This document shows positions 23,750 to 46,390 of a DNA stretch of 59,105 nt, one piece after another. The notes beneath the pieces were generated by a model. That model was not told the origin of the DNA, did no database searches, and saw nothing but the letters and a program-made list of their open reading frames with translations. Position numbers and translations under genes: made by a program. Each line of letters begins with the position of its first letter. Positions within the stretch are counted from its first letter, which is position 1. This DNA comes from an uncultured bacterium (lineage in GTDB: Bacteria > Methylomirabilota > Methylomirabilia > Methylomirabilales > JACQHM01): the NCBI GenBank assembly GCA_964535215.1, contig CAZHST010000014.1, forward strand, positions 13,297 through 72,401, given 5' to 3'.

Positions 23750-23774
23750 CCTTTCCCCTGGGGCGCGCTGGAGA

Positions 23775-26443: not shown

Positions 26444-26456
26444 CTCGCGTGAACCG

Positions 26457-27263: not shown

Positions 27264-27282
27264 CGTCCTCCCGCATCCCTTC

Positions 27283-28230
27283 TCAGTGGCGCCGGGTGGC
27301 GAGATATTCCGCAATGGCGTGGAGGGCCCATGCCCGCCCGCCGAAAGGTTGGAGGGCCTCTTTGGCCTCCGCCGTCAGACGCTCAACCTCTATCTCCGAC
27401 CGCTCTTTCCCTAAGAGGGCGGGATAGGTCGCCTTTCCATGCCTCAGGTCGCTCTTCGCCGGCTTCCCCAGCTCCTCCGTCGTCCCGGTGACATCGAGGA
27501 GGTCATCCACGATCTGGAAGGCAAGGCCGATCCGCTCCCCGTACCGGCTTAAGGCCCCGATCTGTTCTTCGGAGGCCCCCGCGACCAACCCTCCGGCGAT
27601 GACCGACGCCCGGATGAGGGCCCCTGTCTTGTGGGTGTGGAGGTAGAGGAGCGTCTCCTGGTCAATCACTTTCCCCTGCGAGAGGATATCAACCGACTGC
27701 CCCCCGACCATCCCGCGGCTTCCCGCGGCCCGGGCGATCTCCTGGATCAGGGTGGAATGCCTCTCGGCGTTCATCCTTTGGGCAACAGCACCCTGGGAGA
27801 GGAGCTCAAAGGCCAGGGTGAGGAGGGCATCCCCGGCCAGGATGGCCAGGGCCTCGCCGTAGACCTTGTGGCAGGTTGGCTTTCCCCGTCGGAAGTCGTC
27901 ATCGTCCATGCTGGGCAGATCATCGTGGATGAGAGAGTAGGTGTGGATGCATTCTAGAGCAGCGGCAATGGGGAGGACACCTTCGACCTCCCCTCCCACC
28001 GCCTCGGCCGCGGCGATGGCGAGGATCGGCCGGAGGCGTTTCCCTCCGGCGAAGACGCTGTAGCGGATCGCTTCGTGGAGGAGGCGGGGGTAGGTCTCGG
28101 CCGGAGGGAGGAGCCGATCCAGGGCCTGATCAATTAGCCTTCGCCGTTCTGCCAGATAGGCCTCTAGCTGCGTCATCACGCGCCTCGCTCTTAGGTCATG
28201 CCGCCAGGGCCTGGGGCTCGACCGCTTCAC
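27283..28230 (-). CDS. polyprenyl diphosphate synthase (farnesyl/geranylgeranyl diphosphate synthase)
   Basis: First and second Asp-rich motifs LIHDDLPSMDDDDFRRG and FQIVDDLLD. Confidence 0.8.
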   Translation of the reverse strand: MKRSSPRPWRHDLRARRVMTQLEAYLAERRRLIDQALDRLLPPAETYPRLLHEAIRYSVFAGGKRLRPILAIAAAEAVGGEVEGVLPIAAALECIHTYSLIHDDLPSMDDDDFRRGKPTCHKVYGEALAILAGDALLTLAFELLSQGAVAQRMNAERHSTLIQEIARAAGSRGMVGGQSVDILSQGKVIDQETLLYLHTHKTGALIRASVIAGGLVAGASEEQIGALSRYGERIGLAFQIVDDLLDVTGTTEELGKPAKSDLRHGKATYPALLGKERSEIEVERLTAEAKEALQPFGGRAWALHAIAEYLATRRH

Positions 28231-29077
28231 CGACCCGGGGAGCCCGGTACCAGCTCCAGTAAAAGATCAGCTCGCTCCACTGGTGGATGACGGAGATGTG
28301 GAGGAACAGCTCCGCCACAGGGAAAAAGGCCTGGGGCCCGTTCAGCAGGGCCCTCATGGACCCATAGAGCCAGTAGAGGGAGAAGGCCAACGTCGAGCCC
28401 CACCGGATCATCCTGGCCCTCCCCGAGTCCAGGGGGTTGTTCCCCCGGGCCCGGGCCTTGACCGTGATGGTGGTGTTCCAGGTGAGGGCATGGGCGAACC
28501 CGTTAAAGCCCAAGGAGGCAACGATCCATCGGTTCGGGGTCGTCTTCCACTGACCGGGGACACCCTGCCCCGAGGCCTCCCAGAGGGCCTTGAGGATGGC
28601 ATCAACGATCCCGGTGACGAGGAGAAAGAGGGCCGGGTACGTGAGGAGCCAGCGCTCCAGGCCGTCCATCCCCCGCTCCTCCCCAAGCTCTTTCTTCAGG
28701 ACCAGTTGGGGCATGAGACCGTTATGGACGACCCCGTTAAAGAGCGAGTAGGCGATCAGGAAGCTTCCGTAGTGGTGGTGGAGCGGGGTGCCCTCCTTGG
28801 GCCAGAAGAAGATGGCAAGGGGGAGGATGATGAGAAGCCACTGCCAGAAGGTCAAGCGGTTCCTATGCCGTTCGGCATCCCGGTTCAGACCATACCAGAA
28901 AAACTGGGCCTCCCGCACCTGGTGGTGGAAGCCGTAGACCATGAACAGGGCGGCAAACGGATACGGAAGGGTGAGGGCCACGACGAGGGCGGGGAGGAGG
29001 AGGTAGCACCTCCGCCGGAGGAGGGCCGTCGTGGTGAAAGAACCATATCCCCAGAGGAGCTTCACACCTTCCTTCAT
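28196..29077 (-). CDS. integral membrane protein with histidine-box-like motifs (fatty-acid hydroxylase/desaturase-like), function unknown
   Basis: Multiple conserved His clusters (FHHQ, ERHRN, LHHHYG, VVHNG) in a polytopic protein. Located between hpnA and the FPP synthase gene. Confidence 0.4.
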   Translation of the reverse strand: MKEGVKLLWGYGSFTTTALLRRRCYLLLPALVVALTLPYPFAALFMVYGFHHQVREAQFFWYGLNRDAERHRNRLTFWQWLLIILPLAIFFWPKEGTPLHHHYGSFLIAYSLFNGVVHNGLMPQLVLKKELGEERGMDGLERWLLTYPALFLLVTGIVDAILKALWEASGQGVPGQWKTTPNRWIVASLGFNGFAHALTWNTTITVKARARGNNPLDSGRARMIRWGSTLAFSLYWLYGSMRALLNGPQAFFPVAELFLHISVIHQWSELIFYWSWYRAPRVGEAVEPQALAA

Positions 29078-29089
29078 GGCAAAGACCTC

Positions 29090-30103
29090 TTACGGGCGTG
29101 AGAGGGCAGGGACCCTTCGCTTCACGTAGCCGTTCTCCACGAACCACCGGACGGCCTTCTCCAGGGCCTCCTCGACAGGGGTCTGGGGCAGGCCCAGTTC
29201 CTTCACCGCCTTGGAGGCGTCGAAGAACATATACCTCTTGGCCATCTTGACCCCCTCCAGGGGGATCAGGGGTGGGCGCTTTGTGATCCAGTCGGCGATC
29301 CCCTTGTTCATGTAGGCGAGGGGGAGGACGGCCCAGTATGGGAGCTTCAGGGTAGGGGCTTTCAGTCCCGTGATCCGGGAGAGGATGGCGAAGATCTCGT
29401 GGAGGGTCAGGTTCTTGTGGCCGAGGATGTATCGCTCTCCCACCTTTCCCCTCTCGGCGGCGAGGAGGTGACCTTCCGCCACGTCATCCACGGCAATCAG
29501 GTTCAGGCCGGTGTCGAGGTAGCCGAACATCCTGCCGTTTAGGAAATCCACGATCAGCTTTCCGGTTGGGGTAGGCTTGACATCCCTTGGCCCGACGGGG
29601 GTGCTGGGATTGACGATGACAACGGGGAGATCTTCGTTGGCGAAGCGGCGGGCGACCTCCTCGGCGAGGAATTTCGATCGTTTGTAGTGCCCGATCATGT
29701 CTTGAAGAGAGACCGGGGTCTCTTCCGTTCCAGGGCCTCCTTCCCTGGGGAGCCCAAGGACCCCGACGGTGCTGGTATAGACGACCCGGGCGACCCGGGC
29801 CTTCCGCGCCGCCTCCAGGATGTTCTTCGTCCCCTCAACGTTCGTTTCGTAGAGCTCCCGAGGGTCGGGGGCCCAAAGCTTATAGCACGCCGCCACATGG
29901 TACAGTCGGTGACAGCCGTCCAGGGCCCTGTCCAGGGACCTGGGGTCCCGCAGGTCGCCTTGAACGCTCTCTACCCGGAGCCCTTGGAGGTTTCGAAGAT
30001 CGGAGCCCGGTCGAACGAGGACCCGGACGGCTTCCCCCCGTTTAAGGAGGTGGAGGACGACGGCCGATCCGACAAAGCCGGTGGCCCCTGTTACCAGGTT
30101 CAT
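29090..30103 (-). CDS. hpnA: hopanoid-associated NAD-dependent sugar epimerase/dehydratase (HpnA-like)
   Basis: MNLVTGATGFVGSAVV Rossmann motif, YxxxK SDR-extended signature, full-length HpnA-like. Confidence 0.75.
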   Translation of the reverse strand: MNLVTGATGFVGSAVVLHLLKRGEAVRVLVRPGSDLRNLQGLRVESVQGDLRDPRSLDRALDGCHRLYHVAACYKLWAPDPRELYETNVEGTKNILEAARKARVARVVYTSTVGVLGLPREGGPGTEETPVSLQDMIGHYKRSKFLAEEVARRFANEDLPVVIVNPSTPVGPRDVKPTPTGKLIVDFLNGRMFGYLDTGLNLIAVDDVAEGHLLAAERGKVGERYILGHKNLTLHEIFAILSRITGLKAPTLKLPYWAVLPLAYMNKGIADWITKRPPLIPLEGVKMAKRYMFFDASKAVKELGLPQTPVEEALEKAVRWFVENGYVKRRVPALSRP

Positions 30104-30117
30104 GGTCCCTGCGGCTC

Positions 30118-31149
30118 CTAGAAACGATAGTCCAGGTTTGTGAAGATGGTGACGTCGGCATCAGCCCCTGGGCTGTTGAAGACATCCTCGGCGGCCCCCA
30201 CCTGCCAGGAAAGGTCTCTGGCGAGCCTGACGTTCAGGCCGAGGACCACTTCCAGGAGCTCCCGATCGAAGATCTTGTTCCCCACGTTCCTGAAGGGCCT
30301 CGTCGCCGCGTCCAGTTGGAGGACGGCCGAGAGCCGGGGGGAGAAGCGGTACTCGACGGCGATGGCCCCGGAGAAGAAGGGACCAAAGTCCAGACCGGAG
30401 AACCTTTCAGGTTTGAAAGGGACCACAAGGCTCCCGTTGACGTAGAGGATGAAGGGCCCCACCCCTTTTTCCACGATCACGCCAAAACCTAGGTCAGGCT
30501 CGCCGCTACTGAAGGCCAGGTCGGGATCCCCTGTCGGGATCTTGATCCCCACCCGGGCTGTCACCGCCGGGAGGTACCTCTGCTCCTGGAGGATCTCCCC
30601 TTTCACCCGGAGGACGAGGTCACCGGGGCTTAGAACATGGTCGTTCTTGTCGAAGAGGGAGACGCCATCTTTCCGGATATCAAATGTCACGGTGAAGTCG
30701 GGGAACTCTTCTCTGCGGCGCCTGAGCTTGGCCTCCGCGCCGAAGGCCCGCTCGACACCCCTGATGATCTGATCCAGGAAGCCCCCGGAGATGTAGTAAA
30801 AGGGAACCTCCAAACCGACTTCGAACCTGTGGCCAAGGCCGTAGGCCACGTTCAGATCGATCCTCGTCATCTCCAGGTCGAGGGTGGCATCGATCCCCCC
30901 TCCCTTCTTTTGAAGGAGGACATTGGTCTGGGAGAGGGCCAGCCGGACATCCCCTTTCCCCTTTGGGAGGACCGTTGCCTGTTCCGCGTCGAAGCCAAGG
31001 AACAGGAGCTGAAGGGGCTGTTGGTTCCTAATCGCCAGGGGACCGGCACGGACCCCGGACTCCTGAACGTCGTCGGTAAAGCCAGCGGTCGATGTGGCAA
31101 GCAGGAAAGTAAGGACCCAGGGGAACGCTGTCCAAAAACGTTTGGGCAT
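30118..31149 (-). CDS. putative outer-membrane beta-barrel protein (secreted)
   Basis: Signal peptide MPKRFWTAFPWVLTFLLATSTAG, alternating amphipathic strands, C-terminal ...NLDYRF aromatic terminus. Start placed at the Met preceding the signal peptide. Confidence 0.5.
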   Translation of the reverse strand: MPKRFWTAFPWVLTFLLATSTAGFTDDVQESGVRAGPLAIRNQQPLQLLFLGFDAEQATVLPKGKGDVRLALSQTNVLLQKKGGGIDATLDLEMTRIDLNVAYGLGHRFEVGLEVPFYYISGGFLDQIIRGVERAFGAEAKLRRRREEFPDFTVTFDIRKDGVSLFDKNDHVLSPGDLVLRVKGEILQEQRYLPAVTARVGIKIPTGDPDLAFSSGEPDLGFGVIVEKGVGPFILYVNGSLVVPFKPERFSGLDFGPFFSGAIAVEYRFSPRLSAVLQLDAATRPFRNVGNKIFDRELLEVVLGLNVRLARDLSWQVGAAEDVFNSPGADADVTIFTNLDYRF

Positions 31150-31157
31150 CTTGCACC

Positions 31158-32156
31158 TTAGGACATGTTCCAGCGGATCATGGTCCACAGATCCTTCCAA
31201 CTCTTCCCCAGGGCTCGGACGGCCGAGGCCTCGAAGCCGGAATGCATCATGCAGTTCTGGCAGCGCCGATCCCTTCGGGACTCCCAATAATCCCAATCAA
31301 CTCCCCGCCAGAACTCCTCCCAGGTTTTAAAGTATTTCTCCCCGATCAGGTAGCAGGGTCCCTTCCAGCCCAGAGGGGTATAGGTGACGGTGCTCCACGG
31401 GGAACAGGGATAGTCGCGCAGGCCGGCGGCGAACTCGAGGAACATCGGGGTGGAGGTCAACCGGTATCGCTTGGACAAGTCCAGCACCTGCCTGAACTTT
31501 CGATGGATGTCCTGGCGGGTCAGGAAGATGTTCCGATCTACGGACTCGTAATGGTAACCCGGGGAGATCAGCATCCCGTCCACCCTCAGGTCGTGGAGCA
31601 GCTCGCAGAGCTTCTCTACCTCGTTGATATCGGTCTCCTTAAAGACCGTGGTGTTGGTCATCACGTGATAGCCGAGACGCTTCCCTTCCCTGATCATGGC
31701 GATGGCTTTCTCAAAAACCCCATCCCGATCGCAGACGTAGTCGTGGGTGTGTTTCAGCCCATCCAGATGGACGTTGATGGTCAGTCTCTTGTGAGGGGGG
31801 ATGACGCCATAGACCTTCTTGTCAAGCAGGAGACCGTTGGTGCACAGGTAGATGTGCCGCTTCCTGGCGATGATTCCTGCGATTAACTCCCTTAGCTCCG
31901 GGTAGATGGTCGGCTCACCGCCGCAAATGGAAACGGCGGGTGCTCCGCACTCGTCTACCGCCTTGAGGCATTGCTCAACCGTTAACCGGTCTTCCAGCTT
32001 CCCCGTATGCCGCTCCAGCGCACAGCCCAGGCAGGCCAGGTTGCAGGTGTAGAGCGGTTCAAGCATTAAGACGAAGGGATAGCGTCGGTTACCTTTCAAC
32101 AGGTTTCGGATCTGGTGCTTCACCATACCCGTGGTGATATGCAGTGGAAACCGCAT
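31158..32156 (-). CDS. hpnH: hopanoid biosynthesis radical SAM protein HpnH (adenosylhopane synthase)
   Basis: RYPFVLMLEPLYTCNLACLGCA CxxxCxxC cluster followed by HTGKLE, collinear with HpnH. The start may be 48 nt further upstream (32204). Confidence 0.8.
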   Translation of the reverse strand: MRFPLHITTGMVKHQIRNLLKGNRRYPFVLMLEPLYTCNLACLGCALERHTGKLEDRLTVEQCLKAVDECGAPAVSICGGEPTIYPELRELIAGIIARKRHIYLCTNGLLLDKKVYGVIPPHKRLTINVHLDGLKHTHDYVCDRDGVFEKAIAMIREGKRLGYHVMTNTTVFKETDINEVEKLCELLHDLRVDGMLISPGYHYESVDRNIFLTRQDIHRKFRQVLDLSKRYRLTSTPMFLEFAAGLRDYPCSPWSTVTYTPLGWKGPCYLIGEKYFKTWEEFWRGVDWDYWESRRDRRCQNCMMHSGFEASAVRALGKSWKDLWTMIRWNMS

Positions 32157-32212
32157 CCCCAAGCTCCCATCCACCGCTGACGTCCGCAGGTCATCGGCAG
32201 TCAACGTCTGGT

Positions 32213-33256
32213 TTACCGGTCTTCAAGGCCTTTCGGCTCGGACCCGCCTAAGGGCCTGTTATCCCTCGTGGGGCAACCCCAGCCCCTCACCTCATAGTGG
32301 GTGAGCGCCAACAGGCCAAAGCCCACCCATAAAAGCTCCCGTCCCCTCCGGACCAGGCTGAAGGTCATCGCGGCCTCGGAGGGGAGGGAGAACGCGAGAA
32401 AGATGAGGACGTTCCCTCCTTCCTGGAGGCCAAGGCTCCCCGGGATGAAGAAGGCGGCAGCCTTGGTGAGCGTTGAAAGGGCTTCAATGGCGACGGCCGT
32501 GGAAAGCCTAACGGGTATCCCGAGGAAGGCGAGGAGGAAGTAGACTTCTAAGCTGCCGATCATCCATCCTGAGAAGAAGAAGGTAAACGAGGTCGTGAAG
32601 GACCACCGGTTCTTCAGGTAGAAATCGGCGATCATCCGATCGAGGGAGCCAAGCTCCGCCTCCCGCTTTTCCAAAGGTGGGAGCGAAAGCTTGACAGCCT
32701 TGGTGAGTTTTAAGAGGCCGGAGAAGAGGCCCCGTCGTTGGGCGAGGAGAAAGAGGGCGATGGCCGGGATCCCCGTCGCCGTTAGGGCCATCGAGGCCAC
32801 GATGAAGGGACCCCCGGCCCCCCCTGGGCGGATGGCCATGAGCAATCCTAGGACGATGAAGACCAGATGGGCCATGGCCATAATGGTCTTGGTCACCACC
32901 AGCGAGGCAAGGCCCTGGTCCTGGGGAATCCCCTGCCGGTTCAGGAGATAGGCCTTTAACGGTTCCCCCCCGAGGGAGGCCAGGGGGGTTAGGTAGTTCA
33001 GAGCCTCCCCAGCCATCCTGATGGAAAAGATCGTGGAGGCGGGGATGGAGCGGGCCTTTGTCCCCAGCACACACCTCCACCCGAGAGTGTCAAAGATATA
33101 CACCATGAGGTACGGTGTGAGGAGGATCGGCAACCTCCAGCCCAACCGTTTCAGACGGGAGAAGAGGATGCCTGGGCCTGTCTGGAAGATCAGGAAGGCA
33201 AAGAGGGCAATCCCGATGACCAGGAAGAGTAAGGTGACTTTCTTAGGGGGCCTCAT
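32213..33256 (-). CDS. HpnL-like flippase-like membrane protein (UPF0104 / lysyl-PG synthase TM-region family), copy 1
   Basis: 347 aa, about 8 TM helices. The N-terminus LLFLVIGIALFAFLIFQTGPGILFSRLKRLGWRLPILL is typical of UPF0104. First gene of the long leftward hopanoid operon. Confidence 0.6.
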   Translation of the reverse strand: MRPPKKVTLLFLVIGIALFAFLIFQTGPGILFSRLKRLGWRLPILLTPYLMVYIFDTLGWRCVLGTKARSIPASTIFSIRMAGEALNYLTPLASLGGEPLKAYLLNRQGIPQDQGLASLVVTKTIMAMAHLVFIVLGLLMAIRPGGAGGPFIVASMALTATGIPAIALFLLAQRRGLFSGLLKLTKAVKLSLPPLEKREAELGSLDRMIADFYLKNRWSFTTSFTFFFSGWMIGSLEVYFLLAFLGIPVRLSTAVAIEALSTLTKAAAFFIPGSLGLQEGGNVLIFLAFSLPSEAAMTFSLVRRGRELLWVGFGLLALTHYEVRGWGCPTRDNRPLGGSEPKGLEDR

Positions 33257-33506: not shown

Positions 33507-33535
33507 TTGACAGCTCCGCCGGGCAACGGTATCAT
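33507..33535 (+). promoter_or_regulatory. predicted sigma70-type promoter for the decarboxylase genes
   Basis: TTGACA – 17 nt – TATCAT in a roughly 300 nt intergenic region, about 30–45 nt upstream of the candidate start codons. Confidence 0.35.
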
Positions 33536-33562: not shown

Positions 33563-34072
33563 ATGACAGGGGAAGACATGCAGGGTGGGGCAAAACGGTT
33601 CGTGGCCCTCCTGGAGGCGGCGGGCTTCAACTTCTTCACAGGGGTCCCCTGTTCCCTCCTTGAAGGCATCCTGGCCGTTCTGGAGAGACACCCCCGCCTC
33701 CCCTACATCCCTGCCGTCCGGGAGGATGCGGCGGTCGGGATGGCGAGTGGAGCGTTCCTGGCCGGGAAACGGCCGGTTGTCCTTATGCAGAATTCCGGTC
33801 TCGGCACATCCTTAAATGCCCTGGTCTCCTTGAACCTCCTCTACAAGATCCCGCTCCTCCTGGTGGTAAGCTGGCGGGGGTATCGGGGGAAGGATGCCCC
33901 TGAACACCTCATCATGGGGGATGTGTCGCCTCGACTTCTGGAGGATCTCAGCCTGCCCTACCTTGCTCTGGACGAGGAGAAGTTGGAGGACGCCCTCTCC
34001 TGGGCGAAAGGGGTGCTGGAGGGGCAGGGGCTCCCGGCAACCTTCCTCGTCCGTCCCGGGGTCTTACGATGA
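33563..34072 (+). CDS. TPP-dependent phosphonopyruvate/sulfopyruvate decarboxylase, alpha subunit (ComD/Ppd N-terminal half)
   Basis: FVALLEAAGFNFFTGVPCSLLEGIL...MQNSGLGTSLNAL is the TPP-enzyme N-terminal (pyrimidine-binding) domain. Start chosen at the internal ATG; an ATG at 33578 is also possible. Confidence 0.65.
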   Translation: MTGEDMQGGAKRFVALLEAAGFNFFTGVPCSLLEGILAVLERHPRLPYIPAVREDAAVGMASGAFLAGKRPVVLMQNSGLGTSLNALVSLNLLYKIPLLLVVSWRGYRGKDAPEHLIMGDVSPRLLEDLSLPYLALDEEKLEDALSWAKGVLEGQGLPATFLVRPGVLR

Positions 34073-34644
34073 CGAGAGCCGAGGCCATCCGACTGATCGT
34101 TTCCCACCTCACCCATGAGCTGGTTGTCCACGCCAACGGGATGATCTGTCGGGAATCCTTCACCGTCCGGGATCGGCCTGAGAATTTCTACATGATCGGG
34201 TCCATGGGGTTGGCCTCCTCCATCGCCTTGGGAGTTGCCCTCTGCCGTCCCGATCGGAGGGTGGTCATCTTCGACGGGGACGGAAACGTCCTGATGAACC
34301 TGGGAGGCGTGGCGATGGTCGGTGCCCTCCAGCCGAAGAACCTGGTCCATGTCGTCTTCGACAATGAGGCTTATGGTTCCACGGGGGGGCAGGCCAGCCT
34401 TTCCAAGCACCTCCCCCTCCAGGAGATCGCAAGGGCTTCCGGCTACCGGTGGGCCGGGCGGGTTGAGGATCAGGAGGCCCTCGTCACGACCGTTCGAAAG
34501 CTTCTCAATTCGGAAGGTCCTTCCTTCCTCCTGGTCAAGGTCTCCCTTCATGAGGAGGAGGGGATCCCGCGGGTCTCCCATCCCCCTGAGGTGATCCGTG
34601 ACCGCTTCATCGCCGCCCTTCAGGGGACCGGCGTTGGGGGTTAG
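34069..34644 (+). CDS. TPP-dependent phosphonopyruvate/sulfopyruvate decarboxylase, beta subunit (ComE/Ppd C-terminal half)
   Basis: GSMGLASSIALGVAL...VIFDGDGNVLMNLG is the TPP diphosphate-binding GDG motif. It overlaps the alpha subunit by 4 nt. Confidence 0.65.
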   Translation: MTRAEAIRLIVSHLTHELVVHANGMICRESFTVRDRPENFYMIGSMGLASSIALGVALCRPDRRVVIFDGDGNVLMNLGGVAMVGALQPKNLVHVVFDNEAYGSTGGQASLSKHLPLQEIARASGYRWAGRVEDQEALVTTVRKLLNSEGPSFLLVKVSLHEEEGIPRVSHPPEVIRDRFIAALQGTGVGG

Positions 34645-34667: not shown

Positions 34668-35660
34668 CTATCCCACCTCTGACCTTATCCGTTTGAGGCC
34701 ATAACGGGCCAGCGTGGCGAGACCTAGGCTGACCCAGAAAAGCTCCCTGCCCCGTCTCACCAAGCTGAACGTCATCCCTGCCTCCATGGGAAGGGAGAAG
34801 CCAAGGAAGATCAGCATATTCCCCCCCTCTTGGGCTCCTAGAGCTCCTGGGATGACGAAGGCTACGGCTTTGGTGAGGACCGAGAGACCTTGGATAGCAA
34901 AGGCCGTCGGAAGGTCCACGGGCAGCTTTAGAAAGGAGAGCAGCAGGTAGACCTCCAGGCTCTGAACCATCCAACCACCCAGGTGGAACCCCCAGGAGAG
35001 GAGAAAGCTTCGGGCATCTTTGGTGTAAAAGGCGGCGATCTGACGGTCCAGGCTCCGGATCCGTTCCTCCCACCGCTGGAGCCGGGTCTTCAGGAAGGTT
35101 ACGGCTCTGGCAGGCAAGAGAAGCCAGGTGAACAGGCCCTGTCGCTGGAGCACAATCAAGAACGCCATGGCGGGGATCCAAGCGAGGATCAGCACGACTG
35201 AAAAGGTGAGGAAGGGGCTCTTTGCCCCTATCTGGTGTATGGCCAGGATGATCCCGATGACGGTGAAGGTCATCTGGGCCAGGGTCATGGCGGTCTTGGT
35301 GACGACGACAGAGGTCAGGCCCTTCTCAAGGGGGATCTCGTGGGATTTTAGCAAATACGCCTTGACCGGCTCGCCTCCAAGGGAGGCTGAGAAGGTCAGG
35401 TAGTTTACGGCCTCACCGGCCGCTCGGATAAGAAAGAGCCTTGAAAACGGGATTGATGCGCCATCCGCCAACGTCACTCTCCACCCCAGGGTAAAGAAGA
35501 AATAACCGAACGCATACGGCAGGAGGAGGAGGGTCAGCTTCCAGCCCAGGGCCCGAAGGTGGAGGGCGATGGTCAAGGGACCGACCCGGTACACGAGGAA
35601 GGCAAACAAGAGAAGGCCGAGGCTTAGCACCAAAACGTTTAGGGTCTTCGTCTTGATCAC
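34668..35660 (-). CDS. HpnL-like flippase-like membrane protein (UPF0104 family), copy 2
   Basis: Paralog of 32213-33256 with the same N-terminal pattern VLSLGLLLFAFLVYRVGPLTIALHLRALGWKL. It overlaps the upstream fusion gene by 4 nt. Confidence 0.6.
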   Translation of the reverse strand: MIKTKTLNVLVLSLGLLLFAFLVYRVGPLTIALHLRALGWKLTLLLLPYAFGYFFFTLGWRVTLADGASIPFSRLFLIRAAGEAVNYLTFSASLGGEPVKAYLLKSHEIPLEKGLTSVVVTKTAMTLAQMTFTVIGIILAIHQIGAKSPFLTFSVVLILAWIPAMAFLIVLQRQGLFTWLLLPARAVTFLKTRLQRWEERIRSLDRQIAAFYTKDARSFLLSWGFHLGGWMVQSLEVYLLLSFLKLPVDLPTAFAIQGLSVLTKAVAFVIPGALGAQEGGNMLIFLGFSLPMEAGMTFSLVRRGRELFWVSLGLATLARYGLKRIRSEVG

Positions 35661-36994
35661 GGCCTTGGTCCTTGGGCTTTCTCGGAGCGCCGACGGGCCT
35701 TAACCCTTCTCCGGAAGGCAGCGTAGAGGACGAGGGGCCAGAAGAGATTTGTCCCGATGGCCCCAACCCAGAAGAACCAGTGGATCTTGTTCACAACCGC
35801 GAGGAGGAGGAAGAGGAGGGAGAAATCCCGGTGTCTGATCGCCTCGACGATCCCCTCAAGCCTTCGATCGAGGTTTTCTGTCTCCCCGGGCCCTCCACTC
35901 CTGGTCTTGGGGCCCATCATGTGGAGGGTAAAGGCCAGACCGGAAAGGAGAGTCCCTCCTATCAACAGGATCCCGAAGGTAAGGACCTGCCAGCTGGGGG
36001 AGCGGAGGTAGACGACCCGGGTGAGACCCGCGAAGATCCCCAGATGGACGGCGTTATCCAGGATGAAGTCCAACCACCCTCCCCCTCGGCTTTCCAGGAA
36101 CTTGATCCGGGCCAGCATCCCGTCCGCTAAGTCCATCACGAAGGAAAGGACGAGGAGAAGGGCCCCTGTCAGGACGCTGGCATACCCAGCCTGCCACAGG
36201 AAGGCGGCGGCCGCTATCCCTGAGAGGAAGCTGAGGAAGGTAAGCTGGTTGGGGGTGGCTTGAGTCTCGACGAGGGCCTTCACCACCAGGGCCGCCACCT
36301 TCCGGGTCTCTCGGATCACGATGGTGTCGGTTGGCTTTCCCAAGGAGCGGTATAACGCCCTCTCGGCTTCGTCAGTCGGGAGGGAAGAGGTGTCAAAGAC
36401 GTAGGCGTATTCGTCTGGGAGGGTCAGAAGGTACTTTCGGTGGTCCTTGAAGGTCAGGAGGAGCTCTTCCCATCCCTTTGGTCCTTCCCGGTCCAGGGCT
36501 TCGGCGATGAGGCGTATGATCCGTGAGGAGACCAGGGCGATCCCGTGATGGCCTTCCGAGGCCCCCCGGGCAGGAATCAGAATGTCCAGATCCTCTTCAA
36601 AGGCGGCGTGCATCCGTTCCAGCACGACGGGGGCAAAGATCGTCCCCCCATCGAGCAGGAACACTGGGGGTCGTTCCTCTTCCAACCACTCCTCTAGGGT
36701 TCCCCCTTGGGGGTGGAGCGGAGGACAGAACCATGAGACCTGGGCCTTGATCCCGGACCTCTCCGCCAGGAGGGTCTGGAGCTTGGGGGTCTCAGGTCCC
36801 GAGAGGACAAGGAACCGGTGAACCCCCGCTCGTTGTGCCGCAAGGATGATCCTGATGAAGACAGGCACCCCGGCTAACGGGTGGAGGGCAGGGGTCCAGT
36901 CCCCTCCTGGGGGGGGAACGATCAGGGCTGAGAGGGTGATCGCTTTCATAGCGCTCTTCCCCGTTCCCGATCCACGGGGTGGGCGTTTGTTCAC
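35657..36994 (-). CDS. bifunctional nucleotidyltransferase-like / CDP-alcohol phosphatidyltransferase fusion protein
   Basis: The N-terminal roughly 230 aa is an NTP-transferase-like fold (LHPLAGVPVFIRII) with a degenerate Gly-rich loop (IVPPPGGDW). The C-terminal membrane domain carries the CDP-OH-P transferase signature DLADGMLAR...GGWLDFILDNAVH (D-G-x2-A-R...G-x3-D-x3-D). Confidence 0.65.
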   Translation of the reverse strand: MNKRPPRGSGTGKSAMKAITLSALIVPPPGGDWTPALHPLAGVPVFIRIILAAQRAGVHRFLVLSGPETPKLQTLLAERSGIKAQVSWFCPPLHPQGGTLEEWLEEERPPVFLLDGGTIFAPVVLERMHAAFEEDLDILIPARGASEGHHGIALVSSRIIRLIAEALDREGPKGWEELLLTFKDHRKYLLTLPDEYAYVFDTSSLPTDEAERALYRSLGKPTDTIVIRETRKVAALVVKALVETQATPNQLTFLSFLSGIAAAAFLWQAGYASVLTGALLLVLSFVMDLADGMLARIKFLESRGGGWLDFILDNAVHLGIFAGLTRVVYLRSPSWQVLTFGILLIGGTLLSGLAFTLHMMGPKTRSGGPGETENLDRRLEGIVEAIRHRDFSLLFLLLAVVNKIHWFFWVGAIGTNLFWPLVLYAAFRRRVKARRRSEKAQGPRP

Positions 36995-37141: not shown

Positions 37142-37170
37142 TTGCGAGAATGGGGGCGGGTTGCTACAAT
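37142..37170 (+). promoter_or_regulatory. predicted sigma70-type promoter for hpnN
   Basis: TTGCGA – 17 nt – TACAAT. AGGGGGGGAA follows, then a GTG at 37204. Confidence 0.35.
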
Positions 37171-37203
37171 CTTTTACCTGAAACGCCGTCAGGGGGGGAA
37201 ATC

Positions 37204-39987
37204 GTGCTGGTCCGGTTCCTAAAGTTCATCTATCGGCATCCGCGAAGTGTCATCGTTGTCTCTCTGGCAGTAGCCGTCGTCTCTGTCCTCTATGCCGCGA
37301 CCCACTTGAGCTTTAAGACCAGCCGCCTTGACCTCGTTTCCTCCAAGGACAGGTATAGCCTGCTCCACCGGGAGCATAGCAGGGAGTTTGAGTCCCTGGA
37401 TCGGATTGTCATTGTGGTTCAAAGCCATCATCCAGAGCGGGCCAAGGCCTTCGCCAGCCTGTTGGGAAGACGGTTGGAGGCGGACAGGGAGGATTTCGAA
37501 AAGGTCTTTTATCGAATCGACATCGAACCCTTGAAAAACAGAGGCCTCCTTTACCTATCCGCTGACGACCTCCTCGCCCTCAGGCGGAAGCTCCAAAGGC
37601 ATGCGGAGCTGATCAGAGACCTGGCCGCCTCCCCCACCCTCCCCGGCCTCTTCTCCCTGATCAATCGGGAGATGACCTCGGCGATGATCAGCCATACCTT
37701 CACCGGTTTCTTGCTGGAGGAGGAGCAGGGGGGGGAAAAGGAACCTGTTGATCTCGGCCTGCTGATCTCCATCCTGAGAGCGATGGACGAGTGGGTTGAG
37801 GGTCAACACGCCTACGTCTCCCCCTGGGAGGCCTTTTTCACCAAGGAGAAGTGGAAGACATCGGAGGATGGGTTCCTCTGGTCAGAGGATAAGACGTTTC
37901 TCTTCCTCCTGGTCACCCCCCGGCAGGTCTCCGGGACCTTCGACCGGTTCAGGAAGGCCGTTGAGCGTGTCCGGCAGGAGGTCCGGGAGCTTCGCAAAGC
38001 TTTTCCAGACCTCGAGGTCGGGGTCACGGGGCAATCGGTCCTGGATTCGGATGAGATGGGGGCGGCCCAGCGGGATACCGCCATGGCGGCTTTGATCTCC
38101 CTCGTAGGGGTCGGGCTTCTCTATTTCGTCATGTTCAGAGGGGTCATGAGACCCCTCTTCGCCCTCGTGACGCTGGTCATTGGTCTGGGCTGGTCCATCG
38201 GCTTCACCGCCCTGACGGTGGGGCATCTGAACATCATCACCATGACCTTTGCGCCGCTTTTGATCGGCCTGGGGATTGATTACGGCAGCTACTTTATCGG
38301 TCGGTACATGGAAGAGAGGATGCCAGGGGTTGGGGTGCCTTTCGTCATGGAGCGGACCACCGCTGCCGTTGGGCCGGGGATAGCGGCGACCGCCCTCATC
38401 ACCGCGTTCTCCTTCTTCACCCTCGTCTTCACCGACTTCAAAGGTCTGGTCGAGCTGGGCTTCATCAGCGGGACCGGCATCCTCCTCATCCTGCTCGCCA
38501 CCTTCACGGTTCTTCCGGCGTTCCTCATCCTCTATGATGGCCGGAGAGGGGCAACCTTCGATCTCCGCGGAATGAGGGGCGGTGAGGCCCGCTCCGGCTA
38601 CCTGGAAGGGCTGTACCGCTATCCGCTGGTCACCCTCTCGGCGAGTGCCCTCCTTGTCCTCCTTTCCCTCGCGTTTCTCGGGAGGGTTGGGGCTGACTTT
38701 AACCTCCTCCACATGCAGGCCGAAGGGACCGAGTCCGTTGTCTGGGAGCTTAAGATCCTGGAGAACGCCAAGCGGTCGGCCTGGTTTGCGGTGAGCGTCG
38801 CCGACTCTCTGGAGGAGGTGAGGCGAAGGGAGAAGGCCTTTAAGGCCCTTCCTTTGGTGGCAGGGGTCCAGAGCCTTGCCTCCCTGATCCCTCAGGACCA
38901 GGAGCGGAAGCTCCGCCTTCTCAAAAGCCTCCGTCCCTTCCTGGCCGATATCCCCATCCCTCAGGTCAAGCCCGGGCCCCTGGACCTGGAGGTCCTCCTG
39001 TCCACCTTGGAGAGGATCAAGTTCAAGATGGTAGAGGATGGTGGCGAAACCTGGGACCCCAGGAAGAGGCCACCCGTGGAGGCGATGCGTGAGGTGCGCC
39101 GCCTCATTGACCAGTTCTTAACATGGGCCAAGCAAACGGAGCCTGAGGAAGTCCATCGGGCCCTTCAAGGGTTCGAGAGGGAGATTTTCGGGGACTTGAA
39201 GGACAAGCTGGATTTCCTGAAACGGGGCCTCGACGCCGGACCGGTAACGCTCCAGACCATTCCCCCTGAGCTTAAGGAGCGCTTCGTGGGCAGGACGGGA
39301 AGGTACCGGGTATTGATCTTTCCCGCCGAGAACATCTGGGAGCCTGAGCACCTGGCGAAGTTCGTCCGGGCGATCAGGGCTGTGGACCCTGATGCCATCG
39401 GTGATCCGGTCCTGGGCTTTGAGCACATGCAGGCGATGAAGACGGCCTACAAGAAAGCCGGGTTGTATTCGGTCGTCGGTCTCCTCCTCCTGGTCTTTCT
39501 CACGTTTAAGGAGGTGAAGGCTTCCCTCTTGGCCCTGATCCCTTTGGTCCTTGGTTCCCTGTGGACCTTAGGCTTCATGGGGGCCTTTCAGGTGAAGTTC
39601 AACCTGGCCAACCTTATCGTCCTCCCCTTGATAGGGGCTCCTGGGATCGAAGGTGGCATCATGGTCCTCACCCGTTACCGCGAGGAGAGGACCACCAGGA
39701 AGCTCCCCCTTCCCCTCCCCAAGAGCACCGGGAGGGCCATGGCGTTCTCGGCCTTGTCCACGATGGTCGGATTCGGGAGCTTGATGATCTCCCGCCATCG
39801 GGGGATTTACAGCATCGGCCTCCTCCTCATGGTTGGGGTGGGGTGTATCCTCCTGGCTTCCGTCACCGCCCTTCCTGCCGTCCTGCGACTCCGCTTATCA
39901 AAGCAGGCGAAGGTTTCGGGGGAGGATCAAGAGATGCCTCAAACCGTTGGGGCCAAGGAAGGAGGCTGGAAAGGCAGGGGGGGGTAA
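37204..39987 (+). CDS. hpnN: hopanoid-associated RND-superfamily (MMPL-like) transporter HpnN
   Basis: About 927 aa with two 6-TM bundles (the sterol-sensing-like GxxxD..., second bundle near 39480-39900) and two large periplasmic loops. GTG start after the RBS; the upstream ATG at 37150 lies inside the predicted promoter. Confidence 0.7.
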   Translation: MLVRFLKFIYRHPRSVIVVSLAVAVVSVLYAATHLSFKTSRLDLVSSKDRYSLLHREHSREFESLDRIVIVVQSHHPERAKAFASLLGRRLEADREDFEKVFYRIDIEPLKNRGLLYLSADDLLALRRKLQRHAELIRDLAASPTLPGLFSLINREMTSAMISHTFTGFLLEEEQGGEKEPVDLGLLISILRAMDEWVEGQHAYVSPWEAFFTKEKWKTSEDGFLWSEDKTFLFLLVTPRQVSGTFDRFRKAVERVRQEVRELRKAFPDLEVGVTGQSVLDSDEMGAAQRDTAMAALISLVGVGLLYFVMFRGVMRPLFALVTLVIGLGWSIGFTALTVGHLNIITMTFAPLLIGLGIDYGSYFIGRYMEERMPGVGVPFVMERTTAAVGPGIAATALITAFSFFTLVFTDFKGLVELGFISGTGILLILLATFTVLPAFLILYDGRRGATFDLRGMRGGEARSGYLEGLYRYPLVTLSASALLVLLSLAFLGRVGADFNLLHMQAEGTESVVWELKILENAKRSAWFAVSVADSLEEVRRREKAFKALPLVAGVQSLASLIPQDQERKLRLLKSLRPFLADIPIPQVKPGPLDLEVLLSTLERIKFKMVEDGGETWDPRKRPPVEAMREVRRLIDQFLTWAKQTEPEEVHRALQGFEREIFGDLKDKLDFLKRGLDAGPVTLQTIPPELKERFVGRTGRYRVLIFPAENIWEPEHLAKFVRAIRAVDPDAIGDPVLGFEHMQAMKTAYKKAGLYSVVGLLLLVFLTFKEVKASLLALIPLVLGSLWTLGFMGAFQVKFNLANLIVLPLIGAPGIEGGIMVLTRYREERTTRKLPLPLPKSTGRAMAFSALSTMVGFGSLMISRHRGIYSIGLLLMVGVGCILLASVTALPAVLRLRLSKQAKVSGEDQEMPQTVGAKEGGWKGRGG

Positions 39988-40035
39988 ACAGGCGTCCCGG
40001 GGAAAGGCGTTTCTCCAGGCCTTCTGGCCGGATCG

Positions 40036-40776
40036 TCAGGACCCCTCGTCCAGCTTTCTCCCCAGGGCCCTTGCCTGCTCCAGTTCTTCCGGCGTGTCAA
40101 TGTCCATCCAGGGAAGCCCCCCGGTGAGGGAATAGCCGACCGGGACCCCCCGGGCGATCAAGGCTTCAATGGCTGCCGTGAAATAGAGATCCGTTCTCGC
40201 CTGCTGGATGAATCCTCTCATCTCCTCAAAGAAGAGGCGGCTGCCTCGTCCTGAGAATCTGGCGATGCCGATGAAGGTTCCCGTGGCTTCACCGGGGAGG
40301 ATGGATTTGCTGACGGCGGTGATCCGGTCCCCTTGGGAGGTCACCTTCATCGTCTCCCCGAGGATCTCGCGATCAATGACCAGGCAGATATCTCCTGGAA
40401 ATGCCAGGCATCCAGGGAGGATCGCCTTGTGAAAGAGGACATCGGCATGGAGGATGAAACAGGGCAGGCCTTCCACTTGCTCCCGCGCGATCCATGCTGA
40501 ATAGAGATTGTTGGTCTCGGCGTAGAGAGGGTTGTGGAGGAGGGTAAGGCGAAAGGGGTAGCGGCGAGCAGCCCTAGCGGCAAAGCGGTGGATGGCATCA
40601 GCCCGATGGCCGGTGACGATCAGGACCTCGGCGACTCCCGATCCCGCCAGGGCGTCAAGTTGGTATTCCAACAGGGACCTTCCCCCAACATCCAAAAGGC
40701 ACTTCGGCGTGTCGGCCGTCAGCGGGTGAAGCCTGGTGGCCCTCCCCGCTGCGAGGATCAGGGCCTTCATGACCAC
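40036..40776 (-). CDS. sugar-/phosphobase nucleotidyltransferase (LicC/PntC-like cytidylyltransferase family)
   Basis: MKALILAAGRATRLHPLTADTPKCLL is the canonical GxGxRL nucleotide-binding loop. Confidence 0.7.
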   Translation of the reverse strand: MVMKALILAAGRATRLHPLTADTPKCLLDVGGRSLLEYQLDALAGSGVAEVLIVTGHRADAIHRFAARAARRYPFRLTLLHNPLYAETNNLYSAWIAREQVEGLPCFILHADVLFHKAILPGCLAFPGDICLVIDREILGETMKVTSQGDRITAVSKSILPGEATGTFIGIARFSGRGSRLFFEEMRGFIQQARTDLYFTAAIEALIARGVPVGYSLTGGLPWMDIDTPEELEQARALGRKLDEGS

Positions 40777-42501: not shown

Positions 42502-42561
42502 GGGGAAGGCAACGGGGGAGGCGTGGCTCCGGGAACACGGGGAGAGAGGAGGTTTTTGAGG

Positions 42562-46373: not shown

Positions 46374-46390
46374 GCCACCCGGAGGGGGAA

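What the first reader, a model, noticed from the sequence alone, without database searches (positions are those of the whole stretch)
33563..34644. Split (alpha/beta) TPP decarboxylase flanked on both sides by HpnL-like flippase-like paralogs
Bacterial phosphonopyruvate decarboxylases are usually single polypeptides. The two-gene ComD/ComE-like split form is typical of sulfopyruvate decarboxylase in coenzyme M biosynthesis. Substrate assignment (phosphonopyruvate vs sulfopyruvate) therefore cannot be made from sequence alone. It matters because a sulfonate (sulfoacetaldehyde/taurine-like) rather than a phosphonate head group is a live alternative. The pair is convergent with one UPF0104 gene and divergent from the other. 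It has its own well-formed promoter (TTGACA-17-TATCAT) in a 300-nt intergenic region.
Basis: partly seen in the sequence, partly recalled or inferred. Interest (0 to 1): 0.6.

Follow-up and report, generated by a model that had tools for sequence, protein, structure and literature searches.

The report
Split phosphonopyruvate decarboxylase in hopanoid cluster
Two overlapping genes encode the two halves of a thiamine-dependent decarboxylase that most likely makes phosphonoacetaldehyde for a phosphonate lipid head group, and the genes for that pathway are scattered through a hopanoid gene cluster; the split form itself is already known and does not point to sulfonate chemistry.

Summary
[quoted passage not shown] They have their own TTGACA-17-TATCAT promoter and sit between two PF03706 (HpnL-like) paralogs.

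Split phosphonopyruvate decarboxylases are known (RhiEF, PDB 9IZ3). Within this gene's own clade, split and fused forms alternate, so the architecture says nothing about substrate.

Sequence alone is indeed ambiguous: 39% identity to both ComE and AepY, and an uninformative tree. Context decides for phosphonopyruvate:
- The joined subunits pass the Ppd equivalog cutoff and fail both ComD and ComE cutoffs.
- The window holds a PEP-mutase/cytidylyltransferase fusion, a second cytidylyltransferase and a CDP-alcohol phosphotransferase.
- Orthologues are followed by an AEP aminotransferase, and one sits directly beside a canonical PepM.
- Mycetohabitans carries the canonical version of the cassette directly next to its hopanoid genes.
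- No sulfonate-pathway gene was found.

Caveats: the window's PepM-like protein has EDNxxxKRCS instead of EDKxxxxxNS, and no AEP aminotransferase lies in the window.

Verdict: a new member of a known kind, of moderate interest. The more interesting leads are the untested hopanoid-phosphonate link and the variant mutase.

The parts
33507..33535 (+). Sigma-70-type promoter-like site TTGACA-17-TATCAT upstream of the alpha subunit
   Evidence: 11 of 12 consensus positions; 3 sites in the region against 0.3 expected from shuffles. The sequence was also read directly.
33578..34072 (+). Decarboxylase alpha subunit (PYR / TPP_enzyme_N domain), 164 aa. An alternative in-frame ATG at 33563 would give 169 aa.
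   Evidence: Pfam PF02776, 48.3 bits. Best solved relative is RhiE, the phosphonopyruvate decarboxylase alpha subunit 9IZ3_A (132 bits). Catalytic Glu and the QNSGLG loop are conserved.
34069..34644 (+). Decarboxylase beta subunit (PP / TPP_enzyme_C domain), 191 aa, with its start overlapping the alpha stop (ATGA)
   Evidence: Pfam PF02775, 69.3 bits. Best solved relative is RhiF 9IZ3_B (112.5 bits). The GDG-X26-DN motif is present. Alpha and beta joined score 318.2 bits on TIGR03297, cutoff 312.5.
32213..33256 (-). HpnL-like / LPG_synthase_TM (flippase-like) paralog 1, first gene of the minus-strand hpnH operon
   Evidence: PF03706 113 bits; TIGR00374 74.8 (passes); TIGR03476 HpnL 181 against cutoff 195.65. 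A minus-strand promoter-like site lies at 33385-33357.
34668..35660 (-). HpnL-like / LPG_synthase_TM paralog 2, overlapping by 4 nt the CDP-alcohol phosphotransferase gene upstream of it
   Evidence: PF03706 105 bits; TIGR03476 155.3, below cutoff. It is 55% identical to paralog 1 and at most 46% identical to any copy in other loci. The same order, CDP-OH transferase followed by LPG_synthase_TM, occurs in the Nitrospira cassettes.
35657..36994 (-). CDP-alcohol phosphotransferase (AF2299/DIPPS-like) with a degenerate N-terminal cytidylyltransferase-like domain
   Evidence: PF01066 33.5 bits. AF2299 (4O6M) 60.4 bits, with the motif D-x2-DG-x2-AR-x8-G-x3-D-x3-D intact. The N-terminal half matches NTP_transf_3 only weakly, E = 0.001.
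40036..40776 (-). Stand-alone nucleotidyltransferase (candidate phosphonate cytidylyltransferase, PntC-like)
   Evidence: PF00483 and PF12804. It is 34% identical to the NTP transferase of the Nitrospira cassette.
48323..50059 (-). PEP-mutase-like domain fused to an NTP_transf_3 cytidylyltransferase domain; non-canonical motif IEDNVFPKRCSF
   Evidence: PF13714 216 bits plus PF12804. TIGR02320 281.7 against cutoff 319.55. Streptomyces PepM 5UNC scores 275 bits. Of 14 active-site positions checked, 11 are as in canonical PepM; L48F, K116N and N122C differ. The variant clade nests among canonical PepMs.
21732..32204 (-). Hopanoid operon: HpnD, HpnG, squalene-hopene cyclase, CruF-like, FPP synthase, 293-aa membrane protein, HpnA, DUF3187, HpnH
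   Evidence: NCBIfam equivalog hits. SHC 803.7, HpnH 384.5, HpnA 489 and HpnD 327.9 bits are all above their cutoffs.
37150..43197 (+). HpnN-like RND transporter (37150-39987), TolC-like protein (40924-42501) and HpnM-like protein (42523-43197). The nucleotidyltransferase 40036-40776 lies inside this span on the opposite strand.
   Evidence: TIGR03480 HpnN 629.5 bits, below cutoff 751.85.

Best explanation
The two genes encode the alpha (pyrimidine-binding) and beta (diphosphate-binding) subunits of a heteromeric, thiamine-diphosphate/Mg-dependent phosphonopyruvate decarboxylase of the RhiEF type. They are translationally coupled and are transcribed from their own promoter.

The enzyme would convert 3-phosphonopyruvate to phosphonoacetaldehyde plus CO2. 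This pulls forward the unfavourable PEP-to-phosphonopyruvate rearrangement, which I assign to the PepM-like/cytidylyltransferase fusion 14 kb away.

The aldehyde would then be converted to a C2 phosphonate. In orthologous loci that is 2-aminoethylphosphonate (AEP), made by an adjacent AEP aminotransferase; that gene is not in this window. The phosphonate would be activated as a CMP conjugate by the fused and the stand-alone nucleotidyltransferases. The AF2299/DIPPS-like CDP-alcohol phosphotransferase would transfer it to a membrane alcohol. An HpnL-like flippase-like protein would handle the product.

Shown: domain content, conserved motifs, HMM scores, gene order and conservation of context. 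Inferred: the substrate, the order of pathway steps and the lipid acceptor (a glycerolipid or a bacteriohopanepolyol hydroxyl).
For: 1. Alpha and beta joined pass the Ppd equivalog cutoff (318.2 >= 312.5) and fail ComD and ComE. The best solved relatives are RhiE and RhiF, a characterised split Ppd.
2. The window contains a PepM-like-NTP_transf_3 fusion, a second NTP transferase, a CDP-alcohol phosphotransferase with an intact signature, and LPG_synthase_TM genes. Together these cover 5 of the 7 core functions described for Group 1 phosphonolipid clusters.
3. In the 80 related genome loci, 44 have an Aminotran_5 gene, which in the loci examined lies directly after the decarboxylase, and 38 have an NTP transferase. 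Three such aminotransferases score 363.1, 375.5 and 349.9 bits on TIGR03301 (AEP aminotransferase, cutoff 360.8).
4. In L084 a fused member of the same clade (56% identity) lies 3 nt upstream of a canonical PepM-NTP fusion (EDKLFPKTNS; TIGR02320 371.8 >= 319.55).
5. In Nitrospira genomes the variant PepM fusion is divergently adjacent to alpha-beta-AEPT-NTP-CDPOH-LPG.
6. In Mycetohabitans rhizoxinica, canonical aepX-aepY-AEPT plus a cytidylyltransferase, a true HpnL (329.6 bits), a 2OG oxygenase and a CDP-alcohol transferase directly abut hpnD-shc-hpnA-hpnH-hpnN.
7. Split and fused forms alternate within the clade.
Against: The PepM-like partner lacks the EDKX5NS motif used to define PEP mutases (EDNVFPKRCS) and scores below the TIGR02320 cutoff. 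Phosphonopyruvate supply in this organism is therefore not established.

No AEP aminotransferase is present in the 59-kb window. The window ends in tRNA genes and tuf, so the rest of the contig is unlikely to hold one.

Identity to ComE and to AepY is the same, 39%. The NJ tree does not place the clade inside the Ppd references, and only one ComDE reference was available. Clade relatives score at or below the Ppd cutoff (L080 290.6; the Binatia halves score equally on Ppd and ComDE models).

In 71 of the 80 related loci no PepM-like gene lies within 10 kb. In 31 loci, mostly Nitrospinota, the pair stands without any of the cassette or hopanoid-cluster genes I screened for, apart from an HpnA-like SDR gene in most.
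Confidence: 0.78

Rival explanations
1. The pair is a ComDE-type sulfopyruvate decarboxylase. It would make sulfoacetaldehyde for a sulfonate (taurine- or isethionate-like) head group, or for sulfolactate degradation.
For: The two-subunit architecture matches ComDE. ComD/ComE HMM hits are nearly as strong as the Ppd hits (124.7 and 176.3 bits). Beta is 39% identical to PGAP-named ComE of Leisingera. Source annotations of many homologues read 'sulfopyruvate decarboxylase subunit beta'.
Against: Both subunits fall below the ComD and ComE cutoffs. The split form also occurs in the proven Ppd RhiEF, and the clade contains fused members. No ComA/B/C, sulfolactate dehydrogenase, cysteate, Xsc or sulfite-exporter gene was found in the scanned ORFs of the window. 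The conserved partners are an AEP aminotransferase, PepM or PepM-like proteins and cytidylyltransferases; a sulfonate cannot be CMP-activated in that way. The grouping clade+ComDE appeared in 3 of 200 bootstrap replicates.
Confidence: 0.05
2. The decarboxylase acts on a different 3-substituted pyruvate, made by the non-canonical PepM-like enzyme (EDN...KRCS). That enzyme would have changed its chemistry: the Cys sits where the isocitrate-lyase branch has its catalytic Cys. The pathway would then be a relative of AEP biosynthesis but not the same pathway.
For: The variant motif is invariant in the 120 closest homologues and occurs in 21 of the 150 nearest 50%-identity clusters. Its score is below the PepM cutoff, and PGAP names these proteins only 'isocitrate lyase/PEP mutase family protein'. 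The changes hit two of the four specified residues of the diagnostic EDKX5NS motif, and phosphonopyruvate hydrolase differs from PepM at the same Asn (T in 2DUA).
Against: All Mg-binding and other catalytic positions are retained: S46, D58, D85, D87, E114, K120, S123, R159, H190. The variant clade nests among canonical PepMs (monophyly 99/100; sister to Streptomyces PepM 5UNC 92/100). It keeps the PepM-typical cytidylyltransferase fusion. It is followed by AEP-aminotransferase equivalogs. The same decarboxylase clade pairs with a canonical PepM in L084.
Confidence: 0.12
3. It is a genuine Ppd, but the cassette makes an ordinary phosphonoglycerolipid or phosphonoglycan. Its position in the hopanoid cluster would then only reflect a shared membrane-lipid gene island, with no chemical link to hopanoids.
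For: In Nitrospira genomes the complete cassette lies away from hopanoid genes. CDP-alcohol phosphotransferases normally use diacylglycerol-type or inositol-type acceptors. No phosphonate-bearing hopanoid appeared in the literature I searched.
Against: Proximity recurs in several phyla. In Binatia the order is HpnN-alpha-beta-AEPT-NTP-HpnK-HpnI-HpnJ. It also recurs in Scalindua, Methylomirabilota, Burkholderiaceae and this window. In total 27 of 80 loci carry SHC, HpnH, HpnN, HpnG or HpnM within 10 kb.
Confidence: 0.45

Closest known systems
RhiE/RhiF, heteromeric phosphonopyruvate decarboxylase of rhizocticin biosynthesis in Bacillus subtilis ATCC 6633 (PDB 9IZ3/9IZ4; Nakamura et al. 2024, cited in PMC12141560)
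   Same: It has the same two-gene alpha (PYR) / beta (PP) architecture. It is the best solved-structure match for both subunits (132 and 112.5 bits). The TPP motifs are conserved, and it sits in a phosphonate pathway.
   Different: The subunits are only about 40% identical. RhiEF feeds an aldolase (RhiG) on the way to a peptide antibiotic, not a lipid head-group cassette. The window's clade is a separate lineage found in Nitrospirota, Binatia, Methylomirabilota, Scalindua and Nitrospinota.
[quoted passage not shown]
   Same: The pathway partners are the same: a PepM-cytidylyltransferase fusion, a second cytidylyltransferase, a CDP-alcohol phosphotransferase and an HpnL/LPG_synthase_TM protein. 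That cassette is also adjacent to shc, hpnH, hpnA and hpnN.
   Different: AepY is fused and its PepM is canonical. An AEP aminotransferase and a 2OG oxygenase are present there and absent from this window. The CDP-alcohol transferase there is short (231 aa), not the 445-aa AF2299-like form. Here the cassette genes are dispersed over 17 kb and the HpnL-like gene is duplicated.
ComD/ComE sulfopyruvate decarboxylase (coenzyme M biosynthesis; bacterial sulfolactate degradation)
   Same: It shares the two-subunit architecture and similar subunit sizes. Beta is 39% identical to Leisingera ComE.
   Different: Both subunits are below the ComD and ComE equivalog cutoffs. There are no sulfonate-pathway neighbours. 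The conserved neighbours are phosphonate enzymes.

Membership tests
Phosphonopyruvate decarboxylase (Ppd/AepY/Fom2/RhiEF; NCBIfam TIGR03297) | PYR and PP thiamine-diphosphate domains with the catalytic Glu and the GDG...N(N) Mg/diphosphate motif | tested here: met
   PF02776 and PF02775. VREDAAVG and GDGN-X-DNEAY align with AepY and RhiEF.
Phosphonopyruvate decarboxylase (Ppd/AepY/Fom2/RhiEF; NCBIfam TIGR03297) | Score at or above the curated equivalog cutoff (312.5 bits) | tested here: met
   Concatenated alpha+beta scores 318.2 bits, which is marginal. Relatives are at or below the cutoff (L080 290.6; the Binatia halves score equally on ComDE models).
Phosphonopyruvate decarboxylase (Ppd/AepY/Fom2/RhiEF; NCBIfam TIGR03297) | Encoded together with a PEP mutase that supplies phosphonopyruvate | tested here: inconclusive
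   A PepM-like fusion lies 14 kb away in the same cluster, but it has the motif EDNxxxKRCS and scores 281.7 < 319.55 bits. An orthologue in L084 lies beside a canonical PepM.
Phosphonopyruvate decarboxylase (Ppd/AepY/Fom2/RhiEF; NCBIfam TIGR03297) | Decarboxylates 3-phosphonopyruvate to phosphonoacetaldehyde | not testable with these tools
   This needs an enzyme assay.
Sulfopyruvate decarboxylase ComDE (TIGR03845 / TIGR03846) | Two separate subunits, alpha and beta | tested here: met
   The feature is not exclusive to ComDE (RhiEF).
Sulfopyruvate decarboxylase ComDE (TIGR03845 / TIGR03846) | Scores at or above the ComD (147.95) and ComE (221.5) cutoffs | tested here: not met
   Alpha scores 124.7 (122.5 when joined). 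Beta scores 176.3 (173.7 when joined).
Sulfopyruvate decarboxylase ComDE (TIGR03845 / TIGR03846) | Neighbourhood of sulfopyruvate-forming or sulfoacetaldehyde-using genes (ComA/B/C, SlcD, cysteate aminotransferase, Xsc) | tested here: not met
   None was found among the roughly 55 ORFs of the window scanned with Pfam or NCBIfam, nor in the related loci I annotated.
Group 1 'Burkholderiales_CDP-OH' phosphonolipid gene cluster (Yu et al. 2013; Li and Horsman 2022, PMC8942020) | Seven-gene core: Ppm, Ppd, AEPT, a 2OG oxygenase, two cytidylyltransferases (one fused to Ppm) and two phospholipid genes (a CDP-alcohol transferase and an LPG-synthase-domain protein) | tested here: inconclusive
   Present: Ppd (split), a Ppm-like-NTP fusion (variant motif), a second NTP transferase, a CDP-alcohol transferase and LPG_synthase_TM (two copies). 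Absent from the window: AEPT; no 2OG oxygenase was found in any scan. The genes are dispersed rather than contiguous.
PEP mutase (TIGR02320), tested for the partner gene 48323-50059 | EDKX5NS motif and a score at or above 319.55 bits | tested here: not met
   The motif is EDNVFPKRCS and the score is 281.7 bits. The other catalytic residues are conserved and the clade nests within PepMs.
HpnL (TIGR03476), tested for the two flanking genes | Score at or above 195.65 bits | tested here: not met
   The scores are 181.0 and 155.3 bits. Both genes pass the broader flippase-like TIGR00374 model. The Mycetohabitans cassette protein passes HpnL with 329.6 bits.

The most novel reading that the evidence does not exclude
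The cassette would attach a C2 phosphonate (AEP or a relative) to a bacteriohopanepolyol hydroxyl, giving a phosphono-hopanoid, a lipid class never reported. The cassette comprises the split Ppd, the EDN...CS PEP-mutase-like fusion, two cytidylyltransferases, the AF2299-like CDP-alcohol phosphotransferase and the HpnL-like proteins. HpnL-family proteins, whose function is still called 'unclear' in the hopanoid papers I read, would be the flippase-like partner of this head-group pathway. It would also follow that PepM surveys filtered on EDKX5NS have missed phosphonate producers in Nitrospirota, Methylomirabilota and related phyla.
Probability: 0.25. Interest if true: 0.75.

Novelty: new member of a known kind. 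Interest (0 to 1): 0.45.

Why it matters
The decarboxylase on its own is a routine, if uncharacterised, clade of a known enzyme type. Its context is what matters, for three reasons.

1. It ties the orphan hopanoid-associated gene family HpnL to a phosphonate head-group cassette. Two literatures have described the same genes separately: phosphonate genomics as 'Group 1 phosphonolipid' clusters, and hopanoid genomics as 'hpnL, function unknown'.

2. It gives a concrete, testable prediction: a C-P-containing membrane lipid, possibly on a hopanoid, in nitrite oxidisers, anammox bacteria, Methylomirabilota, Binatia and Burkholderiaceae.

3. The partner mutase carries a conserved non-canonical motif that published PepM surveys exclude by design. 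Environmental estimates of phosphonate producers may therefore be too low.

Tried and rejected
- A six-frame regex for EDKxxxxxNS found nothing and at first suggested there was no PepM. A Pfam scan then found a PEP_mutase domain with a variant motif. The regex result was misleading.
- Phylogeny against context-labelled references (three AepY, RhiEF, a split B. cereus pair, Leisingera ComDE, a split Shinella pair) left the clade between the Ppd group and the ComDE group. Clade+ComDE appeared in 3 of 200 replicates, {ComDE+Shinella | rest} in 166 of 200, and {RhiEF+AepY | rest} in 89 of 200. It is therefore not decisive. Only one ComDE reference was available and no archaeal ComDE.
- Percent identity to ComE and to AepY is the same.
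- A first bootstrap run timed out.
- tblastn of the window for the AEP aminotransferase found none. Attempts to read the contig beyond the window failed or gave short contigs. The window ends in tRNA genes and tuf.
- No Rfam family, riboswitch, hairpin or terminator was found in the 306-nt leader or in the 23-nt convergent gap.
- Literature searches for hopanoid plus phosphonopyruvate decarboxylase or PepM, and for Nitrospira plus PEP mutase, returned nothing. Only passing speculation about a 'terpene-phosphonate' or 'phosphonoterpene' exists.
- I considered that the split might be a sequencing frameshift. I rejected this because the same 4-nt overlap recurs across phyla.
Full report
**What is there.** The window is about 62% G+C and looks like a bacterial chromosome fragment; the closest named homologues of several of its proteins come from Nitrospirota MAGs.

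At the finding's coordinates two + strand ORFs overlap by ATGA. The first runs 33563-34072, with a more likely start at 33578 (164 aa). The second runs 34069-34644 (191 aa). Pfam assigns TPP_enzyme_N to the first and TPP_enzyme_C to the second. The cofactor-activating Glu and the GDG...DN motif are conserved.

An 11/12 sigma-70-like promoter, TTGACA-17-TATCAT, lies at 33507-33535. Three promoter-like sites were found in the region against 0.3 expected from shuffles.

The pair is divergent from one PF03706 gene (32213-33256, 306-nt gap) and convergent with another (34668-35660, 23-nt gap). The two PF03706 proteins are 55% identical. Both fall below the HpnL cutoff but pass the flippase-like model.

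**Surroundings.** The pair sits inside a hopanoid cluster.
- On the minus strand: HpnD, HpnG, squalene-hopene cyclase, a CruF-like protein, FPP synthase, a 293-aa membrane protein, HpnA, DUF3187, HpnH and HpnL-like 1.
- After the pair: HpnL-like 2 and a 445-aa CDP-alcohol phosphotransferase (minus strand), an HpnN-like transporter, a 246-aa nucleotidyltransferase, a TolC-like protein and an HpnM-like protein.
- Further on: a GT4 glycosyltransferase, a radical SAM protein and a PIG-L deacetylase.
- At 48323-50059(-): a 578-aa PEP_mutase plus NTP_transf_3 fusion.

No gene of sulfopyruvate formation or sulfoacetaldehyde use was found in the roughly 55 ORFs scanned.

**Is the split form diagnostic?** No. 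RhiE/RhiF of rhizocticin biosynthesis is a characterised, crystallised two-subunit phosphonopyruvate decarboxylase (PDB 9IZ3/9IZ4). It is the best solved match for both subunits. Split Ppd are also noted as 'occasionally observed' in other phosphonate clusters.

Within this gene's own clade the architecture toggles. A scan of one genome per species found at least 547 relatives. The best 80 are 52-65% identical to the window's beta subunit and come from Binatia, Nitrospinota, Nitrospirota, Scalindua/Brocadiales, Methylomirabilota/Rokubacteria and others. In Rokubacteria/Methylomirabilota loci both halves lie in one ORF: L046, L075, L080 and L084, the last being 379 aa with both Pfam domains. 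These nest within the split members.

- Beta is 39% identical both to PGAP-named ComE of Leisingera and to the C-terminal half of AepY of Mycetohabitans.
- Taken singly, the subunits score almost equally on the Ppd and ComD/ComE models. In a Binatia orthologue the scores are equal.
- A bootstrapped NJ tree leaves the clade between the Ppd references and ComDE.
- Against this, the joined subunits pass the curated Ppd cutoff (318.2 >= 312.5), while both fail the ComD and ComE cutoffs.

**Context is decisive.**
- Of the 80 related loci, 44 carry an Aminotran_5 gene and 38 a nucleotidyltransferase; in the loci examined these follow the decarboxylase directly. Three of these aminotransferases score 363.1, 375.5 and 349.9 bits on the AEP aminotransferase equivalog, cutoff 360.8.
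- In two Nitrospirota genomes, one of them Nitrospira sp. Kam-Ns4a, the full set is contiguous. A PepM-like-NTP fusion faces alpha, beta, AEPT, NTP transferase, CDP-alcohol transferase and LPG_synthase_TM.
- In L084 a fused clade member lies 3 nt from a canonical PepM-NTP fusion (EDKLFPKTNS, 371.8 >= 319.55).
- In Mycetohabitans rhizoxinica the canonical set is aepX, aepY, AEPT, a cytidylyltransferase, a true HpnL (329.6 bits), a 2OG oxygenase and a CDP-alcohol transferase. It directly abuts hpnD-shc-hpnG-hpnA-hpnH-ispH-hpnM-hpnN-dxs.

[quoted passage not shown] Its product has never been characterised. The window carries five of the seven functions, dispersed over about 17 kb.

**Mechanism proposed.** The PepM-like fusion converts PEP to phosphonopyruvate. 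The alpha/beta enzyme, which by analogy with RhiEF binds thiamine diphosphate at its heterotetrameric subunit interface, decarboxylates it irreversibly to phosphonoacetaldehyde. A C2 phosphonate is formed; in relatives this is AEP. It is activated as a CMP conjugate by the fused and free nucleotidyltransferases.

The AF2299/DIPPS-like CDP-alcohol phosphotransferase then transfers the phosphonyl group to a membrane alcohol. Its D-x2-DG-x2-AR-x8-G-x3-D-x3-D motif is intact and its N-terminal cytidylyltransferase-like domain is degenerate. The HpnL-like flippase-like protein encoded next to it handles the product.

Domain content, motifs and gene order are shown. Substrates, step order and the acceptor are inferred.

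**The two flanking paralogs.** Paralog 2 keeps the ancestral cassette position, directly after the CDP-alcohol transferase, as in the Nitrospira cassettes. Paralog 1 heads the hpnH operon. Each is nearer to the other (55%) than to any copy in other loci (at most 46%), so this is a lineage-specific duplication.

**Caveats.**
1. The PepM-like protein has IEDNVFPKRCSF instead of EDKX5NS and scores 281.7 < 319.55. The motif is invariant in its 120 closest homologues. It is present in 21 of the 150 nearest 50%-identity clusters, alongside 83 canonical clusters and 16 EDN...NS forms. Among 14 active-site positions only L48F, K116N and N122C differ. The clade is monophyletic (99/100) and sister to Streptomyces PepM 5UNC (92/100), so canonical PepMs lie on both sides of it. 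I rate it a functional mutase at about 0.7, but a change of chemistry is not excluded.
2. No AEP aminotransferase is present in the window, so the final head group in this organism is unknown.
3. In 31 related loci, mostly Nitrospinota, the pair stands beside at most an SDR gene; the one locus examined in detail also has a pyruvate,phosphate dikinase upstream. None has the cassette or hopanoid-cluster genes I screened for. The clade may therefore not be functionally uniform.

**Comparison with the literature.** Hopanoid papers of 2025-26 state that the function of HpnL is unclear and do not mention phosphonates. Phosphonate surveys filter PepM on EDKX5NS. They mention only in passing a possible 'phosphonoterpene' in Nitrosococcus and a 'terpene-phosphonate' in Acetobacteraceae. 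I found no paper linking hopanoids with Ppd or PepM.

**Verdict.** The finding is real. The gene pair is best read as a RhiEF-type split phosphonopyruvate decarboxylase (confidence 0.78), a new member of a known kind. The sulfonate reading is unlikely (about 0.05). The wider context is worth an experiment: a hopanoid-cluster-embedded phosphonate head-group cassette with a variant mutase.

Noticed in passing
window 48323-50059 (-): The PEP_mutase-NTP_transf_3 fusion has motif EDNVFPKRCS instead of EDKX5NS. The variant is invariant in its 120 closest homologues, which are mostly Nitrospirota. It makes up 21 of the 150 nearest 50%-identity clusters, and 16 more clusters are EDN...NS. Published PepM surveys that filter on EDKX5NS would exclude all of these.
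   Followed up: partly
L090/L096 (Mycetohabitans rhizoxinica megaplasmid NZ_CP062172.1, 645-668 kb): A protein that passes the HpnL model (329.6 bits) is encoded inside a canonical AEP cassette (CDP-alcohol transferase, 2OG oxygenase, HpnL, cytidylyltransferase, aepX, aepY, AEPT). The cassette directly abuts hpnD-shc-hpnA-hpnH-hpnN-dxs. The orphan hopanoid gene hpnL may therefore belong to a phosphonate head-group pathway.
   Followed up: partly
L046, L075, L080, L084 (Methylomirabilota/Rokubacteria MAGs): In these loci the same decarboxylase clade is a single fused alpha-beta polypeptide of about 380 aa. In L084 it lies 3 nt upstream of a canonical PepM-NTP fusion.
   Followed up: yes
L017, L018, L025, L028 and about 25 further Nitrospinota loci: Here the split decarboxylase follows an SDR epimerase-family gene, and none of the AEPT, NTP transferase, CDP-alcohol transferase or hopanoid markers I screened for lies within 10 kb. 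In L028, the one locus examined in detail, a pyruvate,phosphate dikinase lies upstream. The function may differ in this lineage.
   Followed up: partly
window 45051-48294 (+): A GT4 glycosyltransferase, a radical SAM protein and a PIG-L deacetylase lie between the HpnM-like gene and the PepM-like gene. Their logic resembles HpnI/HpnJ/HpnK (glucosaminyl and cyclitol-ether hopanoids), but they come from different families.
   Followed up: no
window 26457-27314 (-), 28196-29077 (-), 30118-31296 (-): Inside the hopanoid operon lie a CruF-like carotenoid hydratase homologue, a 293-aa membrane protein with no family hit and a DUF3187 protein. None of them is a named hpn gene.
   Followed up: no
window 32213-33256 and 34668-35660: The two HpnL-like genes are each other's closest relatives (55% identical, against at most 46% to copies elsewhere). 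This is a lineage-specific duplication. The other lineages examined show at most one copy near the cassette.
   Followed up: yes
window 33385-33357 (-): A second promoter-like site, TTGACA-17-CACAAT, lies on the minus strand of the same 306-nt intergenic region. It is placed to drive the HpnL-like 1 / hpnH operon.
   Followed up: no
window 43241-44470 (-), 9722-11050 (-), 14600-15385 (+): Three sizeable ORFs (409, 442 and 261 aa) with gene-like codon-position G+C have no Pfam hit; the first also has no NCBIfam hit. The first lies inside the hopanoid/phosphonate cluster.
   Followed up: no
window 53260-54434 (+) and 58411-59105 (+): The MEP-pathway genes ispD and ispF lie downstream of the cluster. 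The window ends with four tRNA genes (Thr, Tyr, Gly, Thr) and the start of tuf.
   Followed up: no
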